A DNA stretch of 20,000 nt from an uncultured virus (IMG/VR IMGVR_UViG_3300048504_000529). Its lineage: Duplodnaviria > Heunggongvirae > Uroviricota > Caudoviricetes. Position 1 is the first letter of the stretch. Every line of letters begins with the position of its first letter. The notes beneath the pieces are model-generated. The model was not told where the DNA came from, did no database searches, and saw nothing but the letters and a program-made list of their open reading frames with translations. This document shows positions 4,727 through 20,000 of the stretch, one piece after another. The position numbers and the translations under genes were made by a program. The DNA is taken from IMG/VR virus record IMGVR_UViG_3300048504_000529; one strand, 5' to 3'.

Positions 4727-4739
4727 GATAAAAACTCCG

Positions 4740-5456: not shown

Positions 5457-5492
5457 TTTTAAATTGCTCCTTAAAAGTTTATCTGAAGTAAG

Positions 5493-5627: not shown

Positions 5628-5861
5628 TTACTCTTTGTCACCTGCGATCAACGCAAGAACAACAAGAAGAGTAATTAAACCAGCAAGGCTTGCACCTTCG
5701 CCAACGAATCCGTCTACGATACCCTGAAGGTTACCGATTACGTCGAATCCAACTTTATCACCGAGGACGATTTGACCTGCTACTCCGAGTCCTACAACTC
5801 CGAGGAATATACCTGTCAAGCCCTTAACGAATCCATTTACTTTTTCGAATATTGCTTTCAT
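5628..5861 (-). CDS. Small Gly-rich membrane protein (77 aa)
   Basis: Hydrophobic segments GLTGIFLGVVGLGVAGQIVLG and LAGLITLLVVLALIAG; AAGGA SD; own terminator. Confidence 0.85.
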   Translation of the reverse strand: MKAIFEKVNGFVKGLTGIFLGVVGLGVAGQIVLGDKVGFDVIGNLQGIVDGFVGEGASLAGLITLLVVLALIAGDKE

Positions 5862-6320: not shown

Positions 6321-6683
6321 TTAGTTTTTATAATCTGTTAAATCAAAATTGTTTATTTTCATAATCCGTTTTTGTTTATCATTGGTGATGTTAACCAACC
6401 CAGGTGTCTTGGTTATTTTGACATGGTTTATTTGACACATTGTAATTTTATGGTTTTTACCATCTTCTTTGCTTAATGCCAATAATATATTGCCAATAAT
6501 GTTAATTTCGGATGTATCAAGAATACCATCACCTAAATAAAAACCATGACTTGAACTTCTATTTGTTAAATGAAACCAAGTTGCAGTCGGATGTGATTTT
6601 GTATACTCAATTACCAAGTCACTGTTTTCTTGGGCATTTGAACCAAATTTAACAATTTTGTTGTTAACTTGAAACAACTTCAT
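6321..6683 (-). CDS. Stand-alone NFACT RNA-binding domain-like protein (DUF814/NFACT-R)
   Basis: Pattern GxNAxENxxL...WFHL...SSH...V..TKTPGLV characteristic of NFACT-R. Confidence 0.75.
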   Translation of the reverse strand: MKLFQVNNKIVKFGSNAQENSDLVIEYTKSHPTATWFHLTNRSSSHGFYLGDGILDTSEINIIGNILLALSKEDGKNHKITMCQINHVKITKTPGLVNITNDKQKRIMKINNFDLTDYKN

Positions 6684-7526: not shown

Positions 7527-7555
7527 ACAATAGCAAATTTTGTATAAAAAGTCAA
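7527..7555 (-). promoter_or_regulatory. Putative early promoter TTGACT-N17-TATTGT with extended TGn
   Basis: TTGACTTTTTATA core shared by four sites; ATG 9 nt after the -10 box. Confidence 0.75.
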
Positions 7556-7556
7556 G

Positions 7557-8921
7557 TCAATAAACCTTCGCATATACCGATGCTTCAAACATTTCCGACA
7601 AACCTAACGAATGAGCATATCCGTAAATTCCGGTGACAATCAAATCTTTTTCTTTGTCATTTTTAATAGCAGATGCGATTTGAAGTGCTTGTAATTTGGA
7701 TGTAAGATAATCTAATGCAACTGCATTGCTTTTAAAACCTTTTTCATTCAGTTCTCGTTCTAATGCAGTAACACCAGGTTTCAATGGAAAAACTTGACCA
7801 TAATATTTGTTTATCTCTGACAAAATTTTATCTTTTTTCATTGATTTGATTTTATTATTATCATACAAATCACGATTTGTTAAAGATTTAATAATATGCC
7901 GTGTCGCACCAAATCCACATTTACCATTATTTGCAAATTTTCCTTTTAACTCGATTTGAACACTTTGACCTACTCCAAAGGTTCTTATTTGCATATTTAA
8001 TCCTGCTACCGTTTCAATCACCACATCTTTTGAAGAAAATGGTGTTGCTTGTGGTTTAATACGACAGAACTTAAATGCTTGATTTTGCTTTTTAATATTA
8101 TAAACTGAGTAATTCACAGATGCTCCTGCTTTTTTTAATGAAATTCCAACTATTTCTGCTTTCTTGAATCCTTCTAATAATACCTTATTTAAAGAAACAA
8201 TGTCACTTGTCGCAGGAAGATCAGTTTTATTGCTAATCCAAATATCCGATGGATTCCATTTATCATTACTGATTCTAATTCCCAATTTATTAACTGGTTT
8301 CAAATGCTCTTGAAATTTTTTGTAAATGGAATTCATAAACACCGAGTCACGATGAAAGTGGTGTGATCGTGTGAGTTTGTTTCCTATTTTGGTTTTGATC
8401 TTTTCAGCAGTTAGTATCACGGAATTCAACCACTTTTCATCAGTTTTTAACCAGTTTAAAACTTTTCTTATTTCAGTTTTAGTATTACTTGAACCTAAAT
8501 CTAAAACTTTATCTACCGCATTTATTGTAGTTTCTTCATCTAAATTAAATTCACCGAGATGAACCAACGAAGCAAGTGCTATACAAACTGCACTTTCTGA
8601 TAGTTTTGTAATTTCTGCTCCGGCACCTGAACCCGAACCTTTTGAATAAGGAAGTTTATCAATTTGAGTAAATCTGTATCCAATATTTGTTTTAGAATCA
8701 ACAAAAACATTATTTACATTTTCTTTTAAATAAGAAATTACTTTGCCTGCATTTTTTGATGCTAATATTTTTTTGAGTGATTTAATGGAATTTGAATTAT
8801 AGAATAAAACAACATCCCCTCCATCAATTTTTATTTTATTTTTATTTTCAATATCACATATCAATCTATGTAAATAAGAAAATTCGTTTTTATCTACATC
8901 CGTATAACCAAATGAACCCAT
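7557..8921 (-). CDS. Putative PD-(D/E)xK-like nuclease of a large-phage family (DKWNPxDIW...GISLKK)
   Basis: 454 aa, basic; NDKWNPSDIW and IVGISLKK resemble a restriction-like catalytic D...S-x-K arrangement; start overlaps the upstream stop (TAATG). Confidence 0.55.
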   Translation of the reverse strand: MGSFGYTDVDKNEFSYLHRLICDIENKNKIKIDGGDVVLFYNSNSIKSLKKILASKNAGKVISYLKENVNNVFVDSKTNIGYRFTQIDKLPYSKGSGSGAGAEITKLSESAVCIALASLVHLGEFNLDEETTINAVDKVLDLGSSNTKTEIRKVLNWLKTDEKWLNSVILTAEKIKTKIGNKLTRSHHFHRDSVFMNSIYKKFQEHLKPVNKLGIRISNDKWNPSDIWISNKTDLPATSDIVSLNKVLLEGFKKAEIVGISLKKAGASVNYSVYNIKKQNQAFKFCRIKPQATPFSSKDVVIETVAGLNMQIRTFGVGQSVQIELKGKFANNGKCGFGATRHIIKSLTNRDLYDNNKIKSMKKDKILSEINKYYGQVFPLKPGVTALERELNEKGFKSNAVALDYLTSKLQALQIASAIKNDKEKDLIVTGIYGYAHSLGLSEMFEASVYAKVY

Positions 8922-9331: not shown

Positions 9332-9609
9332 ATATATAAATATGGAATTTAAAGAGAAACCCACTCATTTATTTTCTAATGCACAACTACATTTTTGTTT
9401 GCAAGATAGTTAATCAAACTGAAAAACAATTCAGACGAAGTATTCTTGATCTTCGTAACAAGTTGATAGTATATTATATAATCGCAGTTAATTCTCACAA
9501 ATAAAAAATCCTATTCCACTCTAATTCACCAATTATACAATAAATTAAATTGATTGTAAGTAAACATCCATAAAGAATACTTGCCAAATATAAAAGGTTC
9601 TTTAGAAAA

Positions 9610-9852
9610 TTAATCAGCATCGATTTGTGCTTTCATTGCATCAATTGCATCTTCACGATCAAGTTCCGAAAATGTTCCAAATCCTTTACACCACGCACAC
9701 CATGCAAATGCAGATGAAGAACCCTCATCATAATATGAATGAATAACATGACCATTATATTCTAGTTTTTCTTCGTCAGAGACTGCGTTTTCTTCGTCAA
9801 GATCGATTCCAGATTCTGATGCACATTCTTGTAAATGTTTATTGAAACTCAT
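9610..9852 (-). CDS. Small acidic hypothetical protein (80 aa)
   Basis: ATG ORF starting 4 nt after the upstream stop. Confidence 0.75.
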   Translation of the reverse strand: MSFNKHLQECASESGIDLDEENAVSDEEKLEYNGHVIHSYYDEGSSSAFAWCAWCKGFGTFSELDREDAIDAMKAQIDAD

Positions 9853-9856
9853 AATA

Positions 9857-10093
9857 TTATATTGTTGCAGGTGACATTGAATTTGTAATGTCTCTTTGCA
9901 AAGACTTCAAGTCGTGTATGATATCATCAAGCACTTCTTCTGCTGATTGAATGCAGTATCCTTCTTTTCCGGCAAACTTCTTTGCTTCCCATCCATGAAA
10001 CTTACTTGTGTTAATGGAATCTTTGGGATCAGCATAACGAATATTTTCGTTAACGATTTCTTTGATTTTGTTTCTAATTTCTGCTTCTCTCAT
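9857..10093 (-). CDS. Small hypothetical protein (78 aa)
   Basis: ATG ORF directly behind the repeated promoter. Confidence 0.75.
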   Translation of the reverse strand: MREAEIRNKIKEIVNENIRYADPKDSINTSKFHGWEAKKFAGKEGYCIQSAEEVLDDIIHDLKSLQRDITNSMSPATI

Positions 10094-10112
10094 ATTTTTT
10101 TGTTTCTATTCT

Positions 10113-10159
10113 CTCACTTTCAATACAGTGATCTTATCACAATTATTATAAAAAGTCAA
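10113..10159 (-). promoter_or_regulatory. Putative early promoter TTGACT-N17-TAAGAT (TGn) plus conserved leader TGTATTGAAAGTGAG
   Basis: -35 at 10154-10159, -10 at 10131-10136; leader is 14/15 identical to 10365-10379. Confidence 0.8.
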
Positions 10160-10171
10160 CCTAAAAAATCA

Positions 10172-10339
10172 TTACTTGCTGAAATTCTTGATCATTCTAT
10201 TTAAATTTCTCAATTCATTCAATAAAAACTCAGCACCATCATAATTTCCAACTGACCTCATTTCCTTGATATCACTTTTTACTTCAATTCTTCTTGCAAT
10301 CTTTTCCGCAAGAATATCATTCTTATTTACTTCACTCAT
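10172..10339 (-). CDS. Small hypothetical helical protein (55 aa)
   Basis: The track's TTG start (10411) is the -35 box itself; ATG 10339 (MSEVNKN) is preferred. Confidence 0.7.
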   Translation of the reverse strand: MSEVNKNDILAEKIARRIEVKSDIKEMRSVGNYDGAEFLLNELRNLNRMIKNFSK

Positions 10340-10364
10340 ATTTTTATTTTTAACGTTGTTAAAA

Positions 10365-10411
10365 CTCACTCTCAATACAAGTATACTACCAAGAATATTA
10401 TAAAAAGTCAA
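10365..10411 (-). promoter_or_regulatory. Putative early promoter TTGACT-N17-TAGTAT (TGn) plus conserved leader TGTATTGAGAGTGAG
   Basis: -35 at 10406-10411, -10 at 10383-10388. Confidence 0.8.
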
Positions 10412-10423
10412 GCATTATTTTTG

Positions 10424-11968
10424 CTAATAAACAAGTTCTTTTAGTGTCTGCAAATCCAACTTACCTGTTGCAAGTACAGGTATTTCATTTACAATTTTAT
10501 GTTTTTTGGGAACAAATAAATTACCAAGTTGCTTGGATAGTTCACTTCTTAAGTTGGTAAAGTTAATATTCTCGGTGGTGATTAAATACAATTCTTCACC
10601 TTTGCGATCATGTGGAATTCCAACAATTACCAACTTTATTTGATCATCGTGTTGCCAATCAAGAATTTTAATTGCTTCTGCTTCAATTGTTTCGTGTGGA
10701 ATCATTTCTCCACCAATTTTGGAAAATCTTGATAAACGACCTTCAATAAAAAGAAATCCATCTGAATCAAGTTTACCTATATCACCTGTAACAAACCAAC
10801 CATTTTCAAATGCTGACTTGGTTTTAGAACTATCCATGATATACTCGGTGAATATATTATCACCTTGAAAGCATAATAATCCAGATTGTGTTCTTGATAA
10901 ATCTACCTTGGTTTCAGGATGAATTGTTTTCACTTTTATAGATGGTAACATCCTACCAACTGATCCGTGTTTGATTCCATTGGTTGTTGTATTCAATGAA
11001 ATCACAGGTGATGTCTCGGTAAGACCATAACCTTCAAGATACTTGCAATCTGCAATAGTTTCCCATTGTTTAATAAAATCTATGTTGCTTTTTTCTGCAC
11101 CTGCAACGACATATTGCAAACTTTTGAATTTGTTGCTCGATCCCTTTTTAAGATATCCACGCAAAAAGGTGGGAGTTCCTAGAAGTATGCTTACTTGCTC
11201 TGCTTGAATGGCTGCAATGGTTTTGTTTATTTCCAAGGGACTTGGTATTGTAACAATCGGAATGCCCTTGATCAACGGTAACCACATTGTAACGGTGAAT
11301 CCAAAACTATGAAACAGTGGTAGATTTGCAAGCAGTTTACTATTTTTTGGAAACTTCTGAATTTCACAAATTCCGTGGACATTACTGAGAATGTTTTCGT
11401 GCGATAATGATACTCCTTTTGGACTACCACTACTTCCACTTGTAAATAAAACTGCAAATTCTTTTGATGTGGCATTCGGTAATATATTCAATATTCGTTT
11501 GGAAATTGTTTTGGGAATTGAATGCAGAATATAGTTCTTGATTAATTTACATTTATCAGATTTGTATGCTTTTAATTGTGTATCACAATCAATTGTATCA
11601 GACTCAGGAAATGGATATTCGGGAAACTTTGTACGCATTGCAGAAACTGTTAATACCAACTTGATTCCTGATTTTGCTAAACAATGTCTTGCAACATCAT
11701 TTGTAACTGAGAAGTTTAAATTTACAGGTATTTTACCTGCAAGCAAAACTGCAACATTGGCAATTACACCAACTGCACAACTTGGAATTACAACACCAAC
11801 TCTATCTGAATTTGTAGATTTAGCAATATCTTTTGACAACGCAGTTGCCATTATCAAAATTTGCTTTTTAGTTATATGAATTGGTTTATCAAGACTATAA
11901 TCTGTAACACATACATTTGAAGAATTTGTGCGAAGTGAGTTGTACAACTCAAACACTAAGTTATTCAT
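10424..11968 (-). CDS. AMP-dependent acyl ligase, similar to the acyl-ACP synthetase domain of Aas, without the acyltransferase domain
   Basis: FTSGSSGSPKGV P-loop, LPLFHSFG, GTPTFLRGY, AGAEK, EGYGLTETSP, WFVTGD, GRLSRFSKIGGEM, TGKLD; GKIPVNLNF is typical of Aas. Confidence 0.9.
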   Translation of the reverse strand: MNNLVFELYNSLRTNSSNVCVTDYSLDKPIHITKKQILIMATALSKDIAKSTNSDRVGVVIPSCAVGVIANVAVLLAGKIPVNLNFSVTNDVARHCLAKSGIKLVLTVSAMRTKFPEYPFPESDTIDCDTQLKAYKSDKCKLIKNYILHSIPKTISKRILNILPNATSKEFAVLFTSGSSGSPKGVSLSHENILSNVHGICEIQKFPKNSKLLANLPLFHSFGFTVTMWLPLIKGIPIVTIPSPLEINKTIAAIQAEQVSILLGTPTFLRGYLKKGSSNKFKSLQYVVAGAEKSNIDFIKQWETIADCKYLEGYGLTETSPVISLNTTTNGIKHGSVGRMLPSIKVKTIHPETKVDLSRTQSGLLCFQGDNIFTEYIMDSSKTKSAFENGWFVTGDIGKLDSDGFLFIEGRLSRFSKIGGEMIPHETIEAEAIKILDWQHDDQIKLVIVGIPHDRKGEELYLITTENINFTNLRSELSKQLGNLFVPKKHKIVNEIPVLATGKLDLQTLKELVY

Positions 11969-12258
11969 GAATTAGATTTTCGTTGAATTCCTTTTTTACC
12001 GATTTCGTATCCTGCATTTTCAATGGCAGTTTTTATTTCGGCATCAGATAATGTTTTGTTTTTTAATAGCATTATATGAGTGTATGATGTTTGAACATCA
12101 AGTGTGACGGTCTTAACCTTCTTGGTCTTTGATAAATGCTTTGTTATACCTATTGCACACGAAGGACACACAAGACCCTTTACGTGTACAGAGATGGTGC
12201 TTCCAAGCAATAGCAAAGGAAACAACATTAATAAGCATACAAAATTAAATAAACGCAT
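11965..12258 (-). CDS. Secreted heavy-metal-associated (HMA) domain protein
   Basis: Signal peptide, then VKGLVCPSC...AIENAGY; overlaps both neighbours. Confidence 0.85.
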   Translation of the reverse strand: MRLFNFVCLLMLFPLLLLGSTISVHVKGLVCPSCAIGITKHLSKTKKVKTVTLDVQTSYTHIMLLKNKTLSDAEIKTAIENAGYEIGKKGIQRKSNS

Positions 12259-13541
12259 TACGCAAGAATCTTGTTTATAATCTTACCATCATGTGCAACC
12301 TTGAAAGGTCTTCCACTTGGTGAGTAATGTATTTCTTCAAGTTTAAGTCCAAGAGCATGAGCAATTGTTGCATTAAGGTCTTCCACCGAAGCACCTTCTT
12401 CTTCAACATAATGTGCTCGTTCGTCACTTACTCCGTAAACGGTTCCACCTTTAATTCCACCTCCAGCAAGAAATGCACTAAAAGCAGTAGGATGATGATC
12501 ACGACCAATACGACCTGCTTTTACTTCAGGACTTCTTCCAAACTCACTTGCAACCACAACCATTGTGTCGTTCAATTTACCGGTTCGTTCAAGGTCTTTT
12601 AATAATGCTGATAATCCACGATCAAGTGTTGCACCACGTGTTTCCATATTTCCGAATACATCATTGTGCATATCCCAACCACCAAGTTGAACTTCAACAA
12701 AACGAACACCGGTATCTACCAATCTTCGTGCAAGCAAACATCCTTGACCAAAATTATCATCTCCGTACATATCACGTGTTTCTTGAGTTTCTTTTGTTAA
12801 ATCAAATGCTTCCAAATCTTTACTACTCATTAATTTTACTGCATCGTTATACAAATCTGTATAAGCACGAACTTGCTTTTGTGAATATTCACCAAGAAAC
12901 ATTTTGTTGAATTCTTGTGCAGTTTTTAAACGACCGTCATACATAGTTTCATCAAGATACTTTGCAGCCTTTGAGTTCTGAATTCCACTTGAAGGATTTC
13001 CCAACGGAAGAGGACCATGTTTGCTTTCAAGAAATCCCGCACCAAGAACATCACTTCCTCCGTTGATGCGAACTTGTGCCGGCAAAGTTTTATTTAATTT
13101 ACCTGACAACCGACTTACCCAACTTCCCAACGTAGGATGTTTGATTGTTCCTCTTCGTTGATATGAAGTATGAAGCAAATAGTTTGCTTGTTGGTGTGCT
13201 CCTTGATTACTTGTCAAACTACGAATCAAAGATGCGTTGTGCATTTGTTTTGCAGTTTCTGGTAACCAATGACCAATTTGAATTCCGTCTGCACTTGTAG
13301 CAATTGCATTGGTTTCACCCATTACATCTGCGTTTTCTGGTTTCGGGTCAAATGTATCAATGTGAGTCATTCCACCTGACATATACAAAAATATGACGTG
13401 TCGTGCAGATGCAGGTTTGCCAGGTATTTCGTATGCAGTTAAATCACCTGCTCCCATGATGGCACTTACTCCAAGACAAGTCTTGGCCATTCCTTTAATA
13501 AATTTTCTTCTTGATAATTCGTCTGTTAATAGATGTTCCAT
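12258..13541 (-). CDS. DUF1501 family protein with Tat signal (PVC-type)
   Basis: SRRKFIK; VIFLYMSGGMTHIDTFDPK; CLLARRLVDTGVRFVEV; GWDMH; SEFGRSP; GRDHHP; AGGGIKGG; AAGGA SD. Confidence 0.93.
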   Translation of the reverse strand: MEHLLTDELSRRKFIKGMAKTCLGVSAIMGAGDLTAYEIPGKPASARHVIFLYMSGGMTHIDTFDPKPENADVMGETNAIATSADGIQIGHWLPETAKQMHNASLIRSLTSNQGAHQQANYLLHTSYQRRGTIKHPTLGSWVSRLSGKLNKTLPAQVRINGGSDVLGAGFLESKHGPLPLGNPSSGIQNSKAAKYLDETMYDGRLKTAQEFNKMFLGEYSQKQVRAYTDLYNDAVKLMSSKDLEAFDLTKETQETRDMYGDDNFGQGCLLARRLVDTGVRFVEVQLGGWDMHNDVFGNMETRGATLDRGLSALLKDLERTGKLNDTMVVVASEFGRSPEVKAGRIGRDHHPTAFSAFLAGGGIKGGTVYGVSDERAHYVEEEGASVEDLNATIAHALGLKLEEIHYSPSGRPFKVAHDGKIINKILA

Positions 13542-13567
13542 TTTGATTTTCCTTTTCTGTTTTAAAT

Positions 13568-15697
13568 TTAACGAATAAAAATAAATTCATGGGAGTTCAT
13601 AAGAATCCATGCAATATGTTTTGCTCCGTCTTTTTGATCAATGTATTTTTTTAAAAGTTTCATTTCTTTTGCGTTTGGTTCACGATTAAGAATGCTCATA
13701 AAAATGTCTTCAATTTTTCCGGTTTCACGTTTTTCCTCTGCCATTTGTTTCATAAAGTCGGCATTTTTATTGTTTACGATTTTTTGCTCAACAAATCCAT
13801 TGAGCATATTAAGAACTTGAGGTGTAGTTGCTTCAAAGTTTGAATTTTCAATGAGTGCTTTATCACTTCCACCAAACTGACGAATGAGGTGACCACCTCT
13901 TGCAGGATAACCTACATAACTACTACGAATCAAATCACGTGCAGGTATCTTTTTTGGTGCGTAAGTTGTTCCATCTGCTTTATTCAACTGAGCAACAACA
14001 TCTGCAAGATTTCGTGATGGTTTATCGGTCTCGGCGAGATATGCCTTTAACTCATCATAAATTTCTTGAGCAGTTTTATCTTTGTATCGTTCATAAACTG
14101 CTTGATACTTTTCATCGTAATTTGAAGGAACTCGTTCAGGTGAATCAATATTGTTGTAAACTAATGTTACCAATGAATCCCAAATTTGTTCTCCTGTCAT
14201 TCTTTGAAGTGGTGGTCCTGCAAAGTAAAATGTTTCGGGACTTTCATAATCATCTTTAACACTATCACGTGTAAATAAATCCATGCTATAAAGCACTCGC
14301 ATAAATTCTTTAACATCATAATCAACTGATGCCATAATTTTTTCAAGATACGCAAGCAATTCAGGATTACTAGATTCGGTCATATCATTCATATCGTCCA
14401 CCGGTTCAATCAACCCAATTCCAAATGCTCGTTTCCATAAACGATTCACTATAACGGTGGTGAATCTTGGATTTGCTTCTGAAGTAATCCATTCAGAAAA
14501 CTGCTTGCGACTTTGTGGAAGTTTTGTTCCTTGTTCAATTTTCAATGGTGGTGCAAAAATTGCTTTTGCATGAAGTGTGTCACCTGGTTTTGCGTCATCT
14601 TCCATAAACGCATCTGTAAGTTTGATTGTTCCTTTGCCTAATTCATCTGCTAATCCATATCCCATAATATCACGAATATAATTACGATATTGTGTAAATG
14701 TTCTTGCATCATCACTTTTATCTTCACGAACAAGTTTATTGAATTCGTTAACAATTTTTTGAAGTTCTTGTGGACCACGAACACGACCAACTCCGTCTGT
14801 GAATGCAGACATTTCATAAAATTGTTTTTGTGTCCATTTATCAAATGGATGATCGTGACACATAGCACATTCTAATCGTGTTCCTAAAAATACTTGTACG
14901 GTGTTTGCAAGATTATCTAATGGCATACCACGATCACGCAAATAAAATCCTATTGCTTCGTTGCCTGAATCATAATACGCACCTTCGGCGGCAATTAGTT
15001 TTTGCACGAATTCATCAAACGGAGTATTTGCACGAATTTCATTGCGAACATATTCACGATAACGAAATCCACTATTAATATTTGTGTTGTTGAGTTTGTC
15101 TTGAATGCGAAGAATATCAGCAAAGTAATTTAACTGATGACTAACATAACCCTCGGTGTCTAACAATTTATTTATGAGTTTAAGTTTATCTCCACGCATT
15201 TCTGTTTTGAATTCATCGATTTCTGCTTTACCAGGAATTCTTCCGATGATTTTTAGATATGCTCTACGCATAAAAGTATAATCATCTGTATCACGGGTTG
15301 GTCTTTGCCGTTCACTACGAAGTTTTTCCAACACCAAATTATCAGCATATCTTGCCAACTTTTTGATTGTTGCTTCATTTAATGGTCTTGGTAATTTAGG
15401 AACATTATAATCTGATGTCATATAATCATCACGAATCATTCGTTGTGATTGCAATGCCAATGCAGTTAATTTGAAACGAAATAATTGCAAATCGTTCTGT
15501 CGTTGAAACAACACACTTTCTCCGTTGTATTCAATAACTTTTCCTTCAAGTTCTTTTCCGTCACCACTAACAATAGTAACAACTTTTCGTTCTAAAGAAA
15601 TCTCTTTTAGATCCTCGGCATTAATCCGTTCCTGTGCGGTTAACCCGACAGAAATGCTCAAAAAGAGCCCCACTAGCACAAAACTTACGTTTTTCAT
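13568..15697 (-). CDS. DUF1549 (PSCyt2) + DUF1553 (PSD1) protein with signal peptide, SHD1-like N-terminal domain and CxxCH motif
   Basis: DDYTFMRRAYLKIIGRIP; FLGTRLECAMCHDHPFDKWTQKQFY; NPRFTTVIVNRLWKRAFGIGLIEPVDD; SNPELL; GEQIWDSL; terminal WILMNSHEFIF. Confidence 0.93.
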   Translation of the reverse strand: MKNVSFVLVGLFLSISVGLTAQERINAEDLKEISLERKVVTIVSGDGKELEGKVIEYNGESVLFQRQNDLQLFRFKLTALALQSQRMIRDDYMTSDYNVPKLPRPLNEATIKKLARYADNLVLEKLRSERQRPTRDTDDYTFMRRAYLKIIGRIPGKAEIDEFKTEMRGDKLKLINKLLDTEGYVSHQLNYFADILRIQDKLNNTNINSGFRYREYVRNEIRANTPFDEFVQKLIAAEGAYYDSGNEAIGFYLRDRGMPLDNLANTVQVFLGTRLECAMCHDHPFDKWTQKQFYEMSAFTDGVGRVRGPQELQKIVNEFNKLVREDKSDDARTFTQYRNYIRDIMGYGLADELGKGTIKLTDAFMEDDAKPGDTLHAKAIFAPPLKIEQGTKLPQSRKQFSEWITSEANPRFTTVIVNRLWKRAFGIGLIEPVDDMNDMTESSNPELLAYLEKIMASVDYDVKEFMRVLYSMDLFTRDSVKDDYESPETFYFAGPPLQRMTGEQIWDSLVTLVYNNIDSPERVPSNYDEKYQAVYERYKDKTAQEIYDELKAYLAETDKPSRNLADVVAQLNKADGTTYAPKKIPARDLIRSSYVGYPARGGHLIRQFGGSDKALIENSNFEATTPQVLNMLNGFVEQKIVNNKNADFMKQMAEEKRETGKIEDIFMSILNREPNAKEMKLLKKYIDQKDGAKHIAWILMNSHEFIFIR

Positions 15698-15775
15698 AAT
15701 ATGTCCAATAACTTAAATATATATTATTGTGACAATTTTGCAAGTTTTTTATTGTTAATTTACGACATTATGAAG

Positions 15776-16840
15776 TTATTTTACGAACTCTTTTTTGATT
15801 TTTGCTTCAGATGGACTATTCAATTTCTTACCATCGGGTAAAATAACATTGTGAAAAGTGGTAGGATAACGATAAAATGGTTTTCCATAAACACTATAAC
15901 TTAAAACAATTCCATTCTTAACCGTGAAACGACTTCCGTCTTCAAATTCAAATGACATTGTATTGCGATTATGATTTCCGTCAACATTCACTCCGATGCC
16001 ACGACCACCAACGATCACACTAAGTTTCATTTTCATTTTGTATACAAACTTCTCAACACCTTCTTTGGCATTTTGTTTTGCAGTATCTTTTAATATTGTT
16101 TTGTAATCTGATTTAAGTATATAAGCATATCCACCTCGTTCGTTATGATCATACTTGCTATCAAGAAAACGATTTAATATTTTGTTCAAATGATAATTTG
16201 ATTTAGTTTTATATAAATCATAAGTGCTTGTGACTTCCTTCTTTTTTGAATCTTTTTGATATTGATCAATGATCATTTCATAATAATCTTCAAAGTTTGT
16301 CTGCAATTCTTTTTCAAATCCTTTTCCGATTTTTTCAAGTTCTTCTTCAATCTCTTTGCTGATAGTACCTTTAGGTATGCTTGGTTTATTTGATCCTACA
16401 CCAATCTGACGTTTTACAACATCACCTTTCATTGCTTTTAATGTAACTGCAATCTTTTCCCAAGGTTCACACGCAGTCATTGCGTCTTTTACAATCTTGC
16501 TTGCTTTGGGACTTTTAATTGAACGTTTAAGTTGCTTTGCAGTTCTTTTAAGATATCCAGGAACATGAAGAACACTATTTGGAAAAGAATATTTGTATTC
16601 TTCTGTTTCTCCATCTTCTTTCTGAAATCCCCACACAGTAAATTCGTTTGCACCTTTTAATTTTGTGCTATTTGTTGCGATATCAAATGCTCTTGATACA
16701 TCAGTTTTAATTTTCTGAAATTGTGGATTTGGAATCTTCTCACCAGATTTCCATTTTTGAACAAACTCAATTGAGTCTTTGTGTTTTACATCAACCGTTT
16801 GAGATAATCTTATCTCGTTTACTATTCTCATGTATCTCAT
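15776..16840 (-). CDS. Hypothetical basic protein (354 aa)
   Basis: Long ORF with its own promoter; no family recognised. Confidence 0.8.
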   Translation of the reverse strand: MRYMRIVNEIRLSQTVDVKHKDSIEFVQKWKSGEKIPNPQFQKIKTDVSRAFDIATNSTKLKGANEFTVWGFQKEDGETEEYKYSFPNSVLHVPGYLKRTAKQLKRSIKSPKASKIVKDAMTACEPWEKIAVTLKAMKGDVVKRQIGVGSNKPSIPKGTISKEIEEELEKIGKGFEKELQTNFEDYYEMIIDQYQKDSKKKEVTSTYDLYKTKSNYHLNKILNRFLDSKYDHNERGGYAYILKSDYKTILKDTAKQNAKEGVEKFVYKMKMKLSVIVGGRGIGVNVDGNHNRNTMSFEFEDGSRFTVKNGIVLSYSVYGKPFYRYPTTFHNVILPDGKKLNSPSEAKIKKEFVK

Positions 16841-16849
16841 TATTATATA

Positions 16850-16878
16850 ACCTTATTATTTTTTTTATAAAAAGTCAA
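16850..16878 (-). promoter_or_regulatory. Putative early promoter TTGACT-N17-TAAGGT
   Basis: TTGACTTTTTATA core; ATG 9 nt after the -10 box. Confidence 0.7.
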
Positions 16879-16955
16879 GCACTTTTTTTAGCAACTTCGT
16901 ATTCCAAATTTCGGAAGTTTTGATGATGAATGATATCTTCTAGTAGTAATTTACC

Positions 16956-19900
16956 TCACATAGAATCTGTTAAATAGTTTATACTAAAATCTAAACGTCT
17001 ATCAAAAGAAATACTCTTATCTGAATTTAAGTTTGCAATCACAAGTTCATCCATTTCATTTAAGATCAATGGAAACGATTCGTGAGTTGTTGTTCCCGTG
17101 CCTTTATCATCAAATGCACTTCTGCATATTCCTGTATATGTCTGATCACTACTTCCTTGGCCAAACTTTTTTGGGAAAGGTGGTACACCGTCAGATTGTG
17201 TATGGTTCTGCATTGGGATTTTGAGTTCAAAATTTGGTGGAAGTGTTTTTGCTATCCATGACGCCCTAGCAGAATTAAATAGTGGAAATGGATTCAAGCA
17301 ACCATATAAAAACACAGTACTTCCTGTTTGTTCCCAATATATTTCAAACAAACTTGTGTCGTTATACGGAATGTAAGGTGGGTTCATGTCATTCATAACA
17401 AAATATTGACGAACCCACCATCTTTTTACATTTGATGCAACCGAAGAACCACCACTAGATTCAATAAACAATGACCAGCCACTCTCAGAAAATTCAGGAC
17501 TATACGAGTTCATGTCACGTGTGCTGATATAAAGATTTCCGTCAATTGCAGCTGCACTTGCCGTTGCAGGTGCCATTGCTTCAAATCTTACAACATCTCC
17601 AAAATTATATGAAGTTCCCCATGAAAATTTGCCTCTGAATGTAAAACCACTTCCGTTGCTTCCAGATTGTCCTTTACTTCCCTTGACACCTTTGACACCC
17701 TCCATGCCACTATTTAAAAGTTGCCAATATGCACTTCCTCCGTCTTGATATGGATATCCAAAATACTCAGAATTTACATCTTTTGTGGCGATGTAAGATT
17801 CACCACGAAACTTCAGACTTATTACATCATTTTTCTTGTAAAGGTGTGCTTTTTCTAAAACAAACTCACCTTCATAATTAAATTTTGTGGAATCACCCAT
17901 TATTCCTTTTTCACCACGTTCACCCGTTTCTCCTTTACTTCCTCTACTTCCTGTTTCACCAGGTATAGGATCTATCAATAAATCCCATTGCTCAGATTCA
18001 AAAGGTTTCCGAGTTATAGTCATTGGTGATTTGTACACATCAAAACTTGATATAACATCAGCACCGGCATCGTAGTCACCCAAAATCGCAATTACATTAC
18101 CATCTGTATTCATTGCTAGATGTGTTCCGTAATTAGGATTTCCTTCATTATAAAAATCTCTTAACTTCTTCCAAGACTTTGTCGCATTGGAAGTATCTAG
18201 AGAATACACCCCAACTTTACCCGAAACAGCATCTTTGCGATAGTCCGGTGATGATATTGCTATCAAGTTACCATTTTTATTAATTTTTACAGATGCTCCG
18301 AAATTCGCATTAGGTCGCATAACAGGTTCTTCATCAAAAATTTTATTACCAAGTTCACTCCATGATAGATTAATTTCATCCCATGTAAAAACCTGCACCA
18401 TTCCTACATCATTCATGCCATTAATCGGATCATTTATTTTGTAATCATATTTTGTATCACCAATAATCAAAAAGTCACCATTGTGACTGAGCATATGATC
18501 ACTTCCATAAGTTGAATCATCTAAATCACTGAATAGAGTTTGACCTACCTGTTTAATTTCAGGTGGTACACTACTTTCTTTTAGTTCAAAAACTTGAACG
18601 TGTTGGTTTCCCTCCTTGGCATCAGAATATGCTGATATAAATTTACCATTACCACTCACAGAAACTTTTTTTCCAAAGTGGATATTTGATTGAGTTCCAT
18701 TAGTTCCAAATACAGTTCCATATTTTATATAATTATTTGCTCCTATATTCCATTTGTATACATGAACTGCACCCATATTTAACAATGGTGCATACGATTG
18801 ATTGGGTGATCCGACTGCAATTGTATTTCCATCTGCACTCATTGCAACACTTTCCCCAAACAAAGAACCATCCTCTGAACCTAAGTTATCAGAACCACGT
18901 TGCACCCACATCGCAGTAGGACCCGTTGTATCCCAAGTAAAAACTCTAAAAAGTCCTGACGATTTTACTGATGATACCACGACAATATCACCACTTGAAT
19001 TAAATGCTATACTTTCACCAAATCTCTCATCTGTATTTTTACCGTAGTCTCTTGAAATTCTAGACCAATCCGGTGAATCATATTTATATTGTGAAAATGA
19101 ACCATAAATTATATTAGCATCATATGAAGAATCTTTATGTGATAATAAAATTTTATTTCCTTCATCATTAACATCCAATGCAGTCGTTTTGTGCGATGAA
19201 TCATTTGAATAACCAGATATTGTTGATGAACCAACCAATTTCCAATCTAGTGTGGGTACAGCCGCAGTTGCACCCTCAGTTTTTGCATTTCTTATGTAAA
19301 TAGAATTGTTATGGATAGAAGATTCTTCTGAATATGTAACTACATCATTTTCATTATATATCGTTTCTGTATCCCAAACTCCTTGCCACTTTAATGATAA
19401 ACCTTGTTCTCCACGATCACCAGTTTCCCCTTTTGTTCCTTTTAAAGATGCAACTTCACTTGCAGTCAAATCTTCAAATTTCAATTTATCACCTTTTAAA
19501 CCGTCTGGACCTTGCTCTCCTTGTCCACCTTGATTTCCTTTTTCACCATCATCACCTTGTGGACCAACATCACCTTTTAATCCGTCTGGACCTTGCTCTC
19601 CTTGTCCACCTTGATTTCCTTTTTCACCATCATCACCTTGTGGACCAACATCACCTTTTAAACCTTCTGGACCTTGCTCTCCTTGTCCACCTTGATTTCC
19701 TTTTTCACCATCATCACCTTGTGGACCAACATCACCTTTTAAACCTTCTGGACCTTGCTCACCCTGTGAACCTGAATTTCCTTTTTCTCCATCGTTTCCT
19801 TTTTCTCCAACATCACCTTTTAAACCGTCTGGACCTTGCTCTCCTTGCTCACCTTGGTTACCTTTTTCTCCATCGTTTCCTTTTTCACCTTGTGAACCAA

Positions 19901-20000
19901 CATCACCTTTTAAACCGTCTGGACCTTGCTCTCCTTGCTCACCTTGGTTACCTTTTTCTCCATCGTTTCCTTTTTCACCTTGTGAACCAACATCACCTTT
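16956..20000 (-). CDS. Large collagen-like fibre/adhesin protein with FG-GAP-like propeller and GxW/F...Y..xDVV modules; 5' end lies outside the window
   Basis: The frame stays open upstream of the track's TTG (19484) as ...GEQGPDGLKGDKLKFEDL. Repeats FGESIAFN, FGESVAMSADGNTIAVGSP, FGKKVSVS, FGASVKIN. Three modules WQGVW..YNENDVV, YEGEF..YKKNDVI and FRGKF..YNFGDVV, each after a collagen stretch. Confidence 0.88.
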   Translation of the reverse strand, partial: KGDVGSQGEKGNDGEKGNQGEQGEQGPDGLKGDVGSQGEKGNDGEKGNQGEQGEQGPDGLKGDVGEKGNDGEKGNSGSQGEQGPEGLKGDVGPQGDDGEKGNQGGQGEQGPEGLKGDVGPQGDDGEKGNQGGQGEQGPDGLKGDVGPQGDDGEKGNQGGQGEQGPDGLKGDKLKFEDLTASEVASLKGTKGETGDRGEQGLSLKWQGVWDTETIYNENDVVTYSEESSIHNNSIYIRNAKTEGATAAVPTLDWKLVGSSTISGYSNDSSHKTTALDVNDEGNKILLSHKDSSYDANIIYGSFSQYKYDSPDWSRISRDYGKNTDERFGESIAFNSSGDIVVVSSVKSSGLFRVFTWDTTGPTAMWVQRGSDNLGSEDGSLFGESVAMSADGNTIAVGSPNQSYAPLLNMGAVHVYKWNIGANNYIKYGTVFGTNGTQSNIHFGKKVSVSGNGKFISAYSDAKEGNQHVQVFELKESSVPPEIKQVGQTLFSDLDDSTYGSDHMLSHNGDFLIIGDTKYDYKINDPINGMNDVGMVQVFTWDEINLSWSELGNKIFDEEPVMRPNANFGASVKINKNGNLIAISSPDYRKDAVSGKVGVYSLDTSNATKSWKKLRDFYNEGNPNYGTHLAMNTDGNVIAILGDYDAGADVISSFDVYKSPMTITRKPFESEQWDLLIDPIPGETGSRGSKGETGERGEKGIMGDSTKFNYEGEFVLEKAHLYKKNDVISLKFRGESYIATKDVNSEYFGYPYQDGGSAYWQLLNSGMEGVKGVKGSKGQSGSNGSGFTFRGKFSWGTSYNFGDVVRFEAMAPATASAAAIDGNLYISTRDMNSYSPEFSESGWSLFIESSGGSSVASNVKRWWVRQYFVMNDMNPPYIPYNDTSLFEIYWEQTGSTVFLYGCLNPFPLFNSARASWIAKTLPPNFELKIPMQNHTQSDGVPPFPKKFGQGSSDQTYTGICRSAFDDKGTGTTTHESFPLILNEMDELVIANLNSDKSISFDRRLDFSINYLTDSM
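19488..20000 (-). repeat. Tandem DNA repeats encoding collagen: 4 x 81 bp then 2 x 90 bp (continues off the window)
   Basis: Units start with atcacctttt at 19488, 19569, 19650, 19731, 19812, 19902 and 19992; the two 90-bp units are identical. Confidence 0.92.

What the first reader, a model, noticed from the sequence alone, without database searches (positions are those of the whole stretch)
10424..15697. Intact PVC-type DUF1549/1553 + DUF1501 envelope module, coupled to HMA and acyl-ligase genes, in an apparently viral genome
Seen: four co-oriented genes with a 26-nt gap, a TAATG overlap and an ATGA overlap. They encode a signal-peptide CxxCH protein, a Tat-signal DUF1501 protein, a secreted CxxC HMA protein and an Aas-like adenylating enzyme. 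They are flanked by phage-style promoters, orphans and collagen fibre genes. Known: the DUF1549/DUF1553 + DUF1501 pair is a functionally uncharacterised, highly expanded hallmark of Planctomycetes/Verrucomicrobia. Inference: a phage maintains a complete exported module with intact motifs and AT-rich codons like its neighbours. It could be an auxiliary system acting in the host periplasm (metal/redox handling, envelope remodelling or superinfection exclusion), and it also predicts the host phylum. I know of no description of this module in a virus but cannot search.
Basis: partly seen in the sequence, partly recalled or inferred. Interest (0 to 1): 0.85.

Follow-up and report, generated by a model that had tools for sequence, protein, structure and literature searches.

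The report
Phage-borne Verrucomicrobial exported enzyme pair
A large uncultured ocean phage carries, and keeps under strong selection, two exported genes of a bacterial family whose function has been unknown for twenty years, here joined to a small metal-binding protein and a fatty-acid-activating enzyme.

Summary
Four co-oriented, intact genes lie at 10424-15697 on the minus strand. They encode a Sec-signal DUF1549/DUF1553 protein with CxxCH, a Tat-signal DUF1501 protein, a signal-peptide HMA protein with CxxC, and an Aas-type adenylating enzyme. The junctions are as described: a 26-nt gap, TAATG and ATGA.

The DUF1549/1553 + DUF1501 pair is the known PVC module of Kamneva 2012. In both gene trees, all 35 viral and marine-metagenome copies form one clade apart from every cellular copy sampled. 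The best cellular identity is 53%, mostly Verrucomicrobiota. All 20 related IMG/VR contigs carry the pair, and several of them have terminase or T4-type capsid genes.

In the window's own lineage the genes are under purifying selection (dN/dS 0.05-0.24). A complex model scores 0.87 against 0.00 for the best control. DUF1501 models as a sulfatase/alkaline-phosphatase fold.

The HMA and ligase genes are add-ons seen only in this lineage, and they are variably present. That this contig is viral is well supported but circumstantial: no capsid or terminase gene could be reached. This scan has already reported the phage-borne pair five times on other DNA. I found no paper that describes it.

The parts
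13568..15697 (-). DUF1549/DUF1553 (PSCyt2 + PSD1) protein of 709 aa. It has a Sec-type signal, a small SH3/Sm-like beta-barrel at 28-87, an all-helical body, and an invariant CxxCH-D-H motif at 277-283.
   Evidence: Pfam. Translation. CxxCH is present in 42 of 42 aligned homologues. AF2 model pLDDT 85.2. Fold searches.
12258..13541 (-). DUF1501 protein of 427 aa with a twin-arginine (Tat) signal SRRKFI and an alkaline-phosphatase/sulfatase-superfamily fold. It is the predicted partner of the PSD1 C-terminus.
   Evidence: Pfam E 1.9e-112. An RRx[FL] motif occurs in 41 of 42 homologues. AF2 pLDDT 78.6. Foldseek gives 117 PDB matches with E <= 0.001; those listed (ranks 1-50) are sulfatases, sulfamidase, LtaS and alkaline phosphatase. 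Complex model.
11965..12258 (-). HMA-domain protein of 97 aa with a signal-like N-terminus and a CPSC metal-binding motif. Its start overlaps the DUF1501 stop (TAATG).
   Evidence: Pfam 30.8 bits. Weak MerP/CopZ matches below their cut-offs. Sequence. dN/dS 0.17-0.20.
10424..11968 (-). Stand-alone adenylating enzyme of 514 aa. It is most like the C-terminal acyl-ACP synthetase half of Aas-type fusion proteins and has no signal peptide. Its start overlaps the HMA stop (ATGA).
   Evidence: Pfam. NCBIfam PRK08633 positions 620-1140 of 1147, E 2.3e-137, below the cut-off. Core motifs. Present or absent between strains.
15716..15743 (-). Weak sigma-70-like site TTGCAA-16-TATATT, just upstream of the DUF1549/1553 start.
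   Evidence: Consensus scan only, 9 of 12 positions matched; sequence. This is inference.
16865..16879 (-). Copy of the lineage-specific promoter CTTGACTTTTTATAA(TA..TGnTAnnAT) in front of the conserved neighbour gene 15776-16840. It is a possible start of a transcript that runs on into the module.
   Evidence: 4 copies in the window against 0.26 expected. 42 distinct copies in the window and 15 related loci, all on the coding strand.
15776..16840 (-). Conserved upstream neighbour of 354 aa, lysine-rich, with no signal peptide and no family match. It is found only in the window's lineage.
   Evidence: 77-91% identity in most related loci (62% in the most divergent). No Pfam, PHROG or NCBIfam match. 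dN/dS 0.14-0.21.
10398..10412 (-). Next copy of the promoter motif. It marks the downstream end of the cluster and the start of a run of small ORFs, and it is a breakpoint in strain variants.
   Evidence: Contigs join 10412 to 11990, and there are many loose ends at 10382-10422.

Best explanation
The window is a piece of a large uncultured marine tailed phage. Shown: an accessory region driven by repeated sigma-70-type promoters holds the PSCyt2/PSD1 + DUF1501 gene pair of Verrucomicrobiota/Planctomycetota type. In both gene trees the pair shares one clade with copies in at least two other lineages of large ocean phages, which is consistent with a single capture. It is kept under purifying selection with every family-invariant residue intact. 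Inferred: early in infection the Sec-exported PSCyt2/PSD1 protein and the Tat-exported DUF1501 protein meet in the host periplasm and form a heterodimer, with the PSD1 C-terminus sitting on the helical cap of DUF1501. DUF1501 is a metal-dependent hydrolase of the alkaline-phosphatase/sulfatase superfamily. The partner supplies substrate handling or a haem or metal centre through its CxxCH motif. My committed guess is that the complex cleaves sulfate or phosphate esters from envelope or periplasmic organic substrates, either to feed the infection or to edit host surface glycans. In this lineage only, an exported HMA protein would hand a metal to the complex, and a cytoplasmic Aas-like ligase would re-activate fatty acids. 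Both are optional add-ons. The likely host is a marine Verrucomicrobiota bacterium.
For: Family and integrity. These include 67 invariant columns in DUF1501 and 52 in its partner across 42 sequences, all counted against the window's proteins.

Phage context of relatives: 20 of 20 IMG/VR loci carry both genes. Terminase_6N occurs in 4 of 5 records searched. T4 Gp23 occurs in 1 of 4 records, in a 222-kb record rated 100% complete.

One clade: in the DUF1501 tree, 35 phage-type rows separate from 78 cellular rows (SH-aLRT 99, branch 0.53). The partner tree agrees, 32 rows against 63.

Cellular relatives: the best is 53% identical. The 80 best loci comprise 58 Verrucomicrobiota, 16 Planctomycetota, 1 Omnitrophota, 5 unlabelled and 0 Bacteroidota. 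72 of the 80 have the partner gene at the same locus, upstream wherever its position was listed.

Selection: dN/dS is 0.05-0.17 for DUF1501, 0.12-0.17 for its partner, 0.17-0.20 for HMA and 0.08-0.24 for the ligase.

Binding model: score 0.87 against 0.00 for the best of 3 controls. That mark was reached by 116 of 157 solved complexes and 2 of 215 mismatched pairs. The runs agree in at least 96% of contacts and the partner pLDDT is at least 86. No relative of either protein has a solved structure, so the score is not recall of a known complex.

Fold.

Phage character of the window's own lineage: 19 of 19 ORFs lie on one strand and 93% of the window is coding. PHROG families 1462, 2496 and 9437 match almost only T4-like cyanophages among 50,697 phage records. 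There are 42 distinct copies of one extended -10 promoter. The same promoter occurs on one IMG/VR contig that has UvsX-, Dda- and gp32-like and baseplate genes. A run labelled viral metagenome holds 0.70 of the sampled words and contigs at 99% or more. No GTDB species genome among the 80 best holds a copy above 53%.

Host hint: the only 3 taxon-named relatives of the ligase among 120 listed are a Verrucomicrobia bacterium, Lentimonas and Coraliomargaritaceae, at 43-44% identity.
Against: No capsid, portal or terminase gene was seen on the window or on any of the 16 loci of its own lineage. Their metagenome records could not be searched or extended.

That lineage is absent from the IMG/VR copy held here. 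One NCBI record labels an 88%-identical protein as Flavobacteriaceae bacterium TMED42. Relatives sit on contigs of 358,699 bp and, by the protein index, up to 569,543 bp. That is unusually large for a phage.

The link to the IMG/VR contig G007 rests on a promoter motif alone. No protein is shared, and IMG/VR classes G007 as a provirus.

No enzymatic activity, haem attachment or metal has been shown for any member of these families. DUF1501 lacks the sulfatase C/S-x-P-x-R motif. The helical body of the partner matches no solved fold.

RNA-library contigs cover the genes, but this does not prove transcription. The GC content of 34.6% is far below what I recall for marine Verrucomicrobiota.
Confidence: 0.6

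Rival explanations
1. The window is a bacterial chromosome or an integrated island or prophage of a low-GC marine bacterium such as a Flavobacteriaceae MAG, and the phages of IMG/VR took the pair from it.
For: NCBI labels one 88%-identical protein Flavobacteriaceae bacterium TMED42. Contigs reach 358,699-569,543 bp. The lineage is absent from the IMG/VR copy. The one IMG/VR contig with the same promoter motif is classed as a provirus.
Against: There is no housekeeping gene in the window or in about 35 kb of varied flanks from related loci; these hold only unmatched ORFs, fibre-like genes, glycan genes and PHROG-only families. None of the 80 best matches among 185,579 GTDB species genomes exceeds 53% identity, and none is Bacteroidota. 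There are 42 near-identical promoter copies, all on the coding strand. As I recall, Bacteroidota use a different promoter consensus from the TTGACT / TGnTAnnAT seen here. The sequence is present in a viral-fraction sample.
Confidence: 0.1
2. The window belongs to a giant virus of a eukaryote (Nucleocytoviricota), not to a phage.
For: The window has collagen, FG-GAP and DUF285/BspA repeat proteins, 34.6% GC and many unmatched ORFs, and its relatives lie on contigs of 350-570 kb.
Against: The promoters are bacterial sigma-70 type with an extended -10. Stop and start codons overlap. The proteins carry Tat and Sec signals that make sense only in a bacterial envelope. All genes lie on one strand. 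The family matches are to phage-only PHROGs. The sister clade is made of tailed-phage contigs. The NCLDV capsid search was uninformative because its control did not ring.
Confidence: 0.04
3. The pair is mainly a redox device. The CxxCH protein is a c-type cytochrome that passes electrons to or from DUF1501, as Kamneva et al. proposed for the bacterial module, and the phage uses it to keep or redirect periplasmic electron flow.
For: CxxCH followed by D-H is invariant in 42 of 42 sequences, and these are the protein's only cysteines. Tat export fits a protein that carries a cofactor. The paper's proposal was read in passages of PMC3542564. An exported HMA metal-binding protein lies beside the pair.
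Against: The protein has a single CxxCH in 709 residues and no cytochrome c fold was detected; only the small N-terminal barrel finds matches. DUF1501 models as a hydrolase fold with conserved Asp/His/Thr columns, not as an oxidoreductase. Haem attachment has never been shown for this family in the papers I found.
Confidence: 0.2
4. The module changes the host surface to block further phage adsorption (superinfection exclusion), or to free progeny from envelope glycans, rather than to gain nutrients.
For: The module lies in an early-promoter accessory region. In phage loci of 12 kb or more, GDP-mannose dehydratase genes lie nearby in 15 of 52 (14 of 46 in the other phage lineages and 1 of 6 in the window's) and a Sulfotransfer_2-type sulfotransferase in 8 of 52. 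Neither occurs in 0 of 44 cellular loci. Strain-variable fibre genes lie next to the module.
Against: The glycan genes are near the pair in only a minority of loci and may simply share a variable island.
Confidence: 0.12

Closest known systems
DUF1501 + PSCyt1/PSCyt2/PSD1 'conserved genetic module' of Planctomycetes, Verrucomicrobia and Lentisphaerae (Kamneva et al. 2012, PMC3542564; passages read)
   Same: The two Pfam architectures, the gene order, the twin-arginine motif on DUF1501, the signal peptide and CxxCH on the partner, and the unknown function are all the same. 72 of 80 cellular loci examined have the partner gene at the same locus as DUF1501.
   Different: Here the pair is carried by phage-like DNA as a single copy. 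It lacks PSCyt1 and the carbohydrate-binding domains seen in many bacterial copies. It forms its own clade, at most 53% identical to any cellular copy sampled. In this lineage it is followed by HMA and ligase genes, which are found beside it in 0 of 80 cellular loci.
Formylglycine sulfatases and alkaline phosphatase superfamily enzymes (for example sulfamidase 4miv, steroid sulfatase 1p49, carrageenan sulfatases, LtaS, E. coli alkaline phosphatase)
   Same: The predicted core fold is shared: Foldseek E down to 1.5e-6, probability 1.00, 117 matches at E <= 0.001. The protein is exported to the periplasm.
   Different: Sequence identity is 8-14% and TM scores are only about 0.4. There is no C/S-x-P-x-R formylglycine motif. 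No sequence-level match to any PDB chain was found. A dedicated partner protein is predicted to bind it.
Auxiliary metabolic genes of marine phages that act in the host envelope, such as phosphate-scavenging pstS and phoA of cyanophages (recalled, not searched here)
   Same: These are host-derived genes for exported proteins, kept under selection in large marine phages, and they sit in variable accessory regions.
   Different: Those genes have known functions and known hosts. This pair has neither. It appears to have moved between unrelated phage lineages as a two-gene unit.
Aas / LplT-Aas lysophospholipid re-acylation system (NCBIfam PRK08633, PRK08043)
   Same: The ligase aligns end to end with the acyl-ACP synthetase half (E 2.3e-137) and keeps the adenylation core motifs.
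   Different: It has no acyltransferase (PlsC) or transporter domain. The score is far below the family cut-off (459 against 1221 bits). It stands alone and is optional between strains.
MerP / CopZ periplasmic or cytoplasmic metallochaperones
   Same: It has an HMA domain, a CxxC motif in the usual position and, like MerP, a signal-like N-terminus.
   Different: All NCBIfam matches are far below their cut-offs (20-30 bits against 62 or more). No mer or cop genes lie nearby. All 61 relatives found come from unnamed marine metagenome sequences.

Membership tests
PVC PSCyt2/PSD1 + DUF1501 module | A DUF1501 (PF07394) protein | tested here: met
   E 1.9e-112, full profile length, 376.7 bits against a cut-off of 27.
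PVC PSCyt2/PSD1 + DUF1501 module | A neighbouring protein with PSCyt2 (PF07583) and PSD1 (PF07587) | tested here: met
   140.4 and 124.2 bits, both above their cut-offs. The gene lies 26 nt upstream on the same strand.
PVC PSCyt2/PSD1 + DUF1501 module | Twin-arginine motif on DUF1501, and a signal peptide plus CxxCH on the partner | tested here: met
   SRRKFI at 10 and CAMCH at 277. These are conserved in 41 of 42 and 42 of 42 homologues. The signal peptides were judged by eye from the sequence; no predictor was run.
PVC PSCyt2/PSD1 + DUF1501 module | Residence in a Planctomycetota, Verrucomicrobiota or Lentisphaerota genome | tested here: not met
   The context is phage-like. No GTDB species genome among the 80 best holds a copy above 53% identity. 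Homology to the module holds; the carrier differs.
Alkaline phosphatase / sulfatase superfamily | The shared alpha/beta core fold | tested here: met
   Foldseek probability 1.00, E 1.5e-6 to 3e-4, to sulfatases, LtaS and alkaline phosphatase, on a model of pLDDT 78.6. TM scores are about 0.4, so only the core is shared.
Formylglycine (type I) sulfatases | C/S-x-P-x-R motif that is converted to formylglycine | tested here: not met
   No [CS].P.R anywhere in the protein.
c-type cytochromes | CxxCH haem-attachment motif | tested here: met
   One CAMCH, invariant in the family.
c-type cytochromes | Covalently bound haem and a cytochrome c fold | tested here: inconclusive
   No cytochrome-fold match for the helical body. 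The model has 709 residues, so matches to single domains may be missed. Haem binding cannot be tested with these tools.
HMA metallochaperones (CopZ/MerP) | HMA domain with a CxxC metal site | tested here: met
   PF00403 at 30.8 bits against a cut-off of 24.8. CPSC at 31.
HMA metallochaperones (CopZ/MerP) | Score above a curated equivalog cut-off (MerP, CopZ) | tested here: not met
   MerP 25.4 against 92.55 bits; CopZ 28.7 against 91.
Aas (acyl-ACP synthetase / 2-acyl-GPE acyltransferase) | Adenylate-forming domain with core motifs | tested here: met
   PF00501 E 6.1e-53. TSGSSGSPKG, YGLTE, GDIG and GKLD are present. The best NCBIfam match is the ligase half of PRK08633.
Aas (acyl-ACP synthetase / 2-acyl-GPE acyltransferase) | Fused or adjacent PlsC-type acyltransferase | tested here: not met
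   Only profile positions 620-1140 of 1147 are matched. No acyltransferase domain occurs in the window's ORFs.
Tailed phages (Caudoviricetes) | Terminase large subunit, portal and HK97-fold capsid on the same genome | tested here: inconclusive
   None occurs in the 20-kb window or in related loci. The parent metagenome records are not held. The hallmarks were found only in the sister lineage and, as baseplate and replication genes, on the promoter-sharing contig G007.

The most novel reading that the evidence does not exclude
The PSCyt2/PSD1-DUF1501 pair is a two-subunit periplasmic esterase with a haem or metal centre. Several unrelated lineages of large ocean phages pass it among themselves as a cassette and switch it on early. 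It strips sulfate or phosphate from host envelope glycans or dissolved organic matter. The window's lineage, with contigs of 359 kb and perhaps up to 570 kb, would be a very large phage of marine Verrucomicrobiota. That phage has built its own four-gene version by adding a dedicated exported metallochaperone and a fatty-acid ligase. This single-copy phage version would then be the simplest handle for solving the function of a family that fills Planctomycete and Verrucomicrobial genomes.
Probability: 0.15. Interest if true: 0.8.

Novelty: new variant of a known kind. Interest (0 to 1): 0.6.

Why it matters
Planctomycetes and Verrucomicrobia carry DUF1501 and its PSCyt/PSD partners in large numbers of copies, yet no function, structure or cofactor is known for them. 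A phage copy is a natural minimal version. It is single-copy, has no extra binding domains, retains every invariant residue and is under strong selection. It now also comes with a confident heterodimer model and a mapped interface that can be tested by mutation.

The pair would also be an auxiliary gene class not described in the papers I could search, acting in the host periplasm. It is widespread: dozens of marine metagenome contigs, 14 DNA runs that each hold at least half of the stretch's sampled words, and presence in metatranscriptome libraries. If the donor is the host, it also points to large phages of marine Verrucomicrobiota, a host group with very few known phages.

The weight of the finding is reduced in two ways. 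This scan has already reported the same pair on other phage DNA. The parts specific to this window, the HMA and ligase genes, are optional.

Tried and rejected
- **No whole genome for the window.** None is held.
- **Exact window ends in IMG/VR.** Exact 60-mers from both window ends: no match.
- **Megablast of the whole window against 50,697 phage records.** No match.
- **tblastn of DUF1501 and of DUF1549/1553 against the same phage records.** No match for either. No deposited phage genome in that collection has the pair.
- **IMG/VR relatives of the phrog_1462-like protein and of the ligase.** None confirmed.
- **NCLDV capsid family search.** 0 of 4 records, but the control rang nowhere, so the result is uninformative.
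- **Metagenome records behind L026, L027, L032 and L042.** They could not be searched. A locus handle is not accepted for fetching more of them. The hallmark-gene test on the window's own lineage could therefore not be run.
- **tRNA scan of the window and six related loci.** None found.
- **Protein comparison of the window's lineage with two whole sister-lineage phages (G001, G003).** Beyond the pair, only two small ORFs, part of a large protein, glycan-synthesis enzymes (GDP-mannose dehydratase and epimerase types) and one further 190-aa ORF are shared.
- **Comparison with promoter-sharing contig G007.** One weak hit only.
- **blastn of the 76-nt promoter and leader against phage records.** Only chance-level hits, E >= 0.05.
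- **PDB sequence searches.** None for DUF1501 or its partner.
- **Fold searches for the partner.** Only the N-terminal barrel finds matches (best Z 7.6 over 57 residues). The helical body gave nothing clear.
- **Marine megaphage Mar_Mega_1.** I considered it as the source, but nothing from the window matched any record in the phage collection, to which I assume but did not check that it belongs. Paper PMC9723777: abstract, introduction and most of the results read (part 1 of 2).
- **TMED42.** No relevant paper.
- **Cluster look-up.** It gave no further names.
- **Metatranscriptome contigs.** They cover 10136-16383 but not the outer flanks. The runs were chosen with this very stretch, so neither the cover nor the gaps say anything about expression level.
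- **Back-joint 16773 to 10365 seen in three runs.** I read it as a strain or paralogue variant at the repeated promoter region and did not resolve it.
- **Earlier-findings look-ups.** Look-ups by genome and with the 15776-16840 protein returned nothing.

Full report
**The observation**

All ORFs of 60 aa or more that make up the gene map of the window lie on the minus strand. They cover 93% of it.
- 13568-15697 encodes a 709-aa protein with PSCyt2/DUF1549 and PSD1/DUF1553.
- 12258-13541 encodes a 427-aa DUF1501 protein that matches the whole profile (E 1.9e-112).
- 11965-12258 encodes a 97-aa HMA protein.
- 10424-11968 encodes a 514-aa AMP-binding enzyme.

I read the junctions in the sequence. 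There is a 26-nt spacer with AAAGGAAA before the DUF1501 start, then TAATG between DUF1501 and HMA, then ATGA between HMA and the ligase.

The motifs are present.
- The DUF1549/1553 protein has a hydrophobic signal-like N-terminus and a single CAMCH, which holds its only two cysteines.
- DUF1501 has SRRKFI, a twin-arginine motif.
- HMA has a signal-like N-terminus and CPSC.
- The ligase has the adenylation core motifs and no signal.

GC3 of the four genes is 0.21-0.29. This lies inside the range of their neighbours, 0.16-0.35.

**What the carrier is**

No whole genome is held for this window. The window is not in the IMG/VR copy or in 50,697 deposited phage genomes.

The flanks hold collagen-repeat and FG-GAP proteins, many ORFs with no family match, and a 454-aa protein of phrog_1462. 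The detectable relatives of that protein in the phage collection are almost all T4-like cyanophages: 44 of 46 records at the default threshold, at 25-29% identity.

A scan of metagenome contigs with the DUF1501 protein gave 80 loci. Sixteen of them form the window's own lineage, here called group A, with DUF1501 85-99% identical. Several group A loci align to the window at 89-99% DNA identity across 9502-16889. Independent assemblies therefore bridge both ends of the cluster. Contigs from three further runs also bridge 15740.

Group A flanks add more of the same content:
- unmatched ORFs, collagen and laminin-G proteins, and a DUF285/BspA repeat protein;
- sulfotransferase, GDP-mannose dehydratase and glycosyltransferase genes;
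- two more phage-only families, phrog_2496 (E 3e-100, 81 phage records, all but one named as Synechococcus phages or cyanophages) and phrog_9437.

No housekeeping gene and no tRNA was seen.

A lineage-specific promoter is the strongest internal sign of a phage. Its sequence is CTTGACTTTTTATAATA..TGnTAnnAT followed by a conserved leader.
- It occurs four times in the window, against 0.26 expected by chance.
- It occurs 47 times (42 distinct copies) in the window and 15 of the 16 group A loci, always on the coding strand.
- It occurs in none of the other 191 loci held at that point, which included two whole sister-lineage phages.
- It is a bacterial sigma-70 promoter with an extended -10. That argues against a eukaryotic virus. 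By my recollection of Bacteroidota promoter consensus, it also argues against a flavobacterial host.
- In all of IMG/VR its 26-nt degenerate form hits one contig, G007, of 80,388 bp. G007 has four copies, 33.9% GC, 91 of 95 ORFs on one strand, and UvsX-like, Dda-like, gp32-like, ribonucleotide reductase, baseplate-hub and tape-measure-like genes.
- G007 shares no protein with the group A loci, and IMG/VR classes it as a provirus. This link is therefore only suggestive.

Two further observations fit a virus. A run labelled viral metagenome holds 0.70 of the sampled words and contigs at 99% identity or more. None of the 80 best matches in 185,579 GTDB species genomes exceeds 53% identity.

Several points count against.
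- I could not reach the rest of any group A contig, so no capsid or terminase gene is tied to this lineage.
- One NCBI record labels an 88%-identical protein as a Flavobacteriaceae MAG.
- Relatives lie on contigs of 358,699 bp and, by the protein index, up to 569,543 bp.

I put the phage reading at about 0.85, a bacterial island at about 0.1 and a giant virus at about 0.04.

**The pair in other phages and in cells**

IMG/VR holds 20 loci with DUF1501 at 66-72% identity. All 20 also encode the DUF1549/1553 protein at 48-51% identity. Their records include:
- a 222-kb genome rated 100% complete, with a T4-type Gp23 capsid gene (E 1.6e-89; found in 1 of 4 records searched);
- records with a Terminase_6N gene (4 of 5 records).

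Near the pair these phages carry Pol III alpha, DnaB, RecA-like, ClpB-like and ribonucleotide reductase genes. The capsid and terminase proteins are only 33% and 24% identical to those of any cultured phage.

Beyond the pair, these genomes share almost nothing with group A. The pair therefore sits in at least three unrelated large-phage backgrounds.

Among cellular genomes the best DUF1501 match is 53% identical. The 80 best loci are 58 Verrucomicrobiota, 16 Planctomycetota, 1 Omnitrophota and 5 unlabelled. In 72 of the 80 the partner gene lies at the same locus, upstream wherever its position was listed.

The two gene trees agree.
- In the DUF1501 tree of 113 rows, the 6 group A and 29 other phage-type rows form one clade (SH-aLRT 99, stem 0.53) apart from all 78 cellular rows. 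Their nearest neighbours are a long-branched Verrucomicrobiota MAG and then a Verrucomicrobiales, Akkermansiaceae and Prosthecobacter clade.
- A FastTree of the partner protein (95 rows) gives the same split, with long-branch warnings.

The tree is unrooted, and the cellular sample was chosen by two sequence motifs. 'Verrucomicrobiota-type origin, one capture' is therefore the simplest reading, not a proven one.

**Selection and variability**

Within group A, pairwise dN/dS against the window is as follows.

| Gene | dN/dS |
|---|---|
| DUF1501 | 0.05-0.17 |
| DUF1549/1553 partner | 0.12-0.17 |
| HMA | 0.17-0.20 |
| Ligase | 0.08-0.24 |

Synonymous divergence differs sharply between neighbouring genes against the same relative. 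Against L027, dS is 1.29 for the ligase and 0.044 for the partner. The region is therefore mosaic.

Of the 16 group A loci, HMA is detected in 11, the ligase in 10 and both in 6. Some loci are too short to tell. L028, L033 and L036 truly have HMA without the ligase. L035 and L037-L039 have the ligase without HMA. A contig in an RNA library joins 10412 directly to 11990, which is a precise absence of the ligase gene.

Among the 84 other phage-type loci, HMA occurs once and the ligase never. Among the 80 cellular loci, neither occurs. So the four-gene 'module' is a conserved pair plus two optional, lineage-specific additions.

The ligase's only taxon-named relatives among 120 listed are a Verrucomicrobia bacterium, Lentimonas and Coraliomargaritaceae, at 43-44% identity. 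This is a second, independent pointer to marine Verrucomicrobiota. The HMA protein has 61 relatives, all from unnamed marine metagenome sequences.

**How it may work**

The following is shown.
- All 67 invariant columns of DUF1501 and all 52 of its partner, across 42 phage and cellular sequences, are present in the window's proteins.
- The DUF1501 model (pLDDT 78.6, pTM 0.80) matches sulfatases, sulfamidase, LtaS and alkaline phosphatase: 117 PDB chains at E <= 0.001, best 1.5e-6, TM about 0.4. It lacks the formylglycine motif.
- The partner model (pLDDT 85.2) has a small SH3/Sm-like barrel at 28-87 and a helical body with no clear match to a solved structure.
- Neither family has a solved relative by sequence.

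The complex model of partner residues 100-709 with DUF1501 residues 45-427 scored 0.87, against 0.00 for the best of 3 controls. That mark was reached by 116 of 157 solved complexes and 2 of 215 mismatched pairs. The counts hold only roughly, because my own alignments were used. The three runs agree in at least 96% of contacts and the partner pLDDT is at least 86. The interface joins the conserved PSD1 C-terminus (479-499 and 601-707, including the invariant or near-invariant W697, L699, N701, F705 and F707) to DUF1501 residues 131-238 (including the invariant R204, Y227 and Y231). The model supports binding; it does not show it.

The following is inferred. Both proteins are exported, one by Sec and one by Tat, and they pair in the host periplasm. 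DUF1501 acts as a metal-dependent ester hydrolase. The CxxCH partner supplies a haem or metal centre or handles the substrate. The exported HMA protein would serve as a metal donor. The cytoplasmic Aas-like ligase would re-activate fatty acids.

The cluster lies directly downstream of a gene driven by the repeated promoter, so early expression is plausible but untested. Contigs from six metatranscriptome libraries hold 27-49% of the sampled words. Contigs from the two that were laid cover the genes. This does not prove transcription.

**Comparison with what is known**

The pair is a homologue of the module described by Kamneva et al. 2012 (PMC3542564, passages read). They proposed membrane targeting and electron transport and left the function open. 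He et al. 2017 (PMC5615132, passages read) noted that PSCyt genes lie beside unknown gene families and sulfatases, and suggested a link to carbohydrate use.

Full-text searches found no description of the pair in a virus. The terms searched were DUF1501 with DUF1553; DUF1501 with phage; DUF1501 alone; PSCyt2/PSD1 with virus; and the Pfam accessions with DUF1549/DUF1553. The only DUF1501-with-phage hit I opened concerns a weak CDD hit in a 61-aa Pseudomonas phage ORF. Supplementary tables of jumbo-phage surveys were not searched and could list these domains.

This scan has itself reported the phage-borne pair five times on other DNA, with the same reading. My tests were run before I saw those notes, and they agree.

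**Verdict**

This is a new variant of a known kind: a known bacterial module of unknown function, captured by large marine phages and maintained there. In this lineage it carries a phage-specific HMA gene and ligase gene. It may sit in a very large genome.

Noticed in passing
window 7542-7556, 10146-10160, 10398-10412, 16865-16879 (minus strand): A highly conserved sigma-70-type promoter with an extended -10 and a conserved leader precedes four genes in the window. It has 42 distinct copies across the window and 15 related loci, all on the coding strand. It looks like an early-promoter family of this phage lineage.
   Followed up: yes
L207 / G007 (IMG/VR contig of 80,388 bp): This is the only IMG/VR contig that matches the 26-nt promoter pattern. 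It has four copies, 33.9% GC, 91 of 95 ORFs on one strand, and T4-like replication, recombination and baseplate genes. It shares no protein with the window's lineage and is classed as a provirus with 51% completeness.
   Followed up: partly
window 10412-11990: The ligase gene is a clean presence/absence cassette. A contig in an RNA library joins 10412 to 11990 with 31 other letters, and three related loci have HMA but no ligase. Many contigs break at 10382-10422, so this is a recombination hot spot.
   Followed up: partly
window 7557-8921 versus L032:14265-15542: The same genomic slot holds a phrog_1462 protein in the window and an unrelated phrog_2496 protein in a close relative. Both families are otherwise found almost only in T4-like cyanophages. 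This suggests swappable cassettes.
   Followed up: partly
window 16890-20000 and 1-5500: DNA similarity to close relatives stops at 16889. The collagen-repeat, FG-GAP and fibre-like genes differ between strains, as expected for host-recognition proteins.
   Followed up: no
L032 (metagenome contig of 358,699 bp); protein index: Near-identical DUF1501 genes (88-98%) lie on contigs of 317,731 to 569,543 bp. If these contigs are not chimeric, the lineage is a jumbo-sized or even megaphage-sized genome.
   Followed up: no
window 5628-5861: A 77-aa ORF with no family match is 44-57% identical to ORFs in many of the other phage-type loci and in the T4-like record G001. It is one of the very few genes shared across these lineages besides the pair.
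   Followed up: no
window 13568-15697, protein residues 28-87: The DUF1549/1553 protein begins, after its signal, with a small SH3/Sm-like beta-barrel (best Z 7.6 over 57 residues). This domain lies outside the Pfam domains.
   Followed up: partly
window 16773 and 10365: Contigs of three runs join 16773 back to 10365 with about 35 other letters between. This is possibly a strain or paralogue in which the 354-aa neighbour gene sits behind a different copy of the promoter. It is not resolved.
   Followed up: no
L001, L017, L027 and other phage loci: GDP-mannose dehydratase genes (15 of 52 phage loci of 12 kb or more) and sulfotransferase genes (8 of 52 for one type) lie near the pair. They are found in 0 of 44 cellular loci of that size.
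   Followed up: partly
window 6321-6683: A 120-aa ORF has a weak, sub-threshold match to the NFACT-R_1 RNA-binding domain (E 1.3e-4, 22.9 bits against a cut-off of 29.8).
   Followed up: no
L181 (Verrucomicrobiota MAG contig, 109,361 bp): Its DUF1501 and partner genes are the nearest cellular neighbours of the phage clade in both trees. They sit on very long branches (about 1.5), so the placement is unsafe.
   Followed up: no
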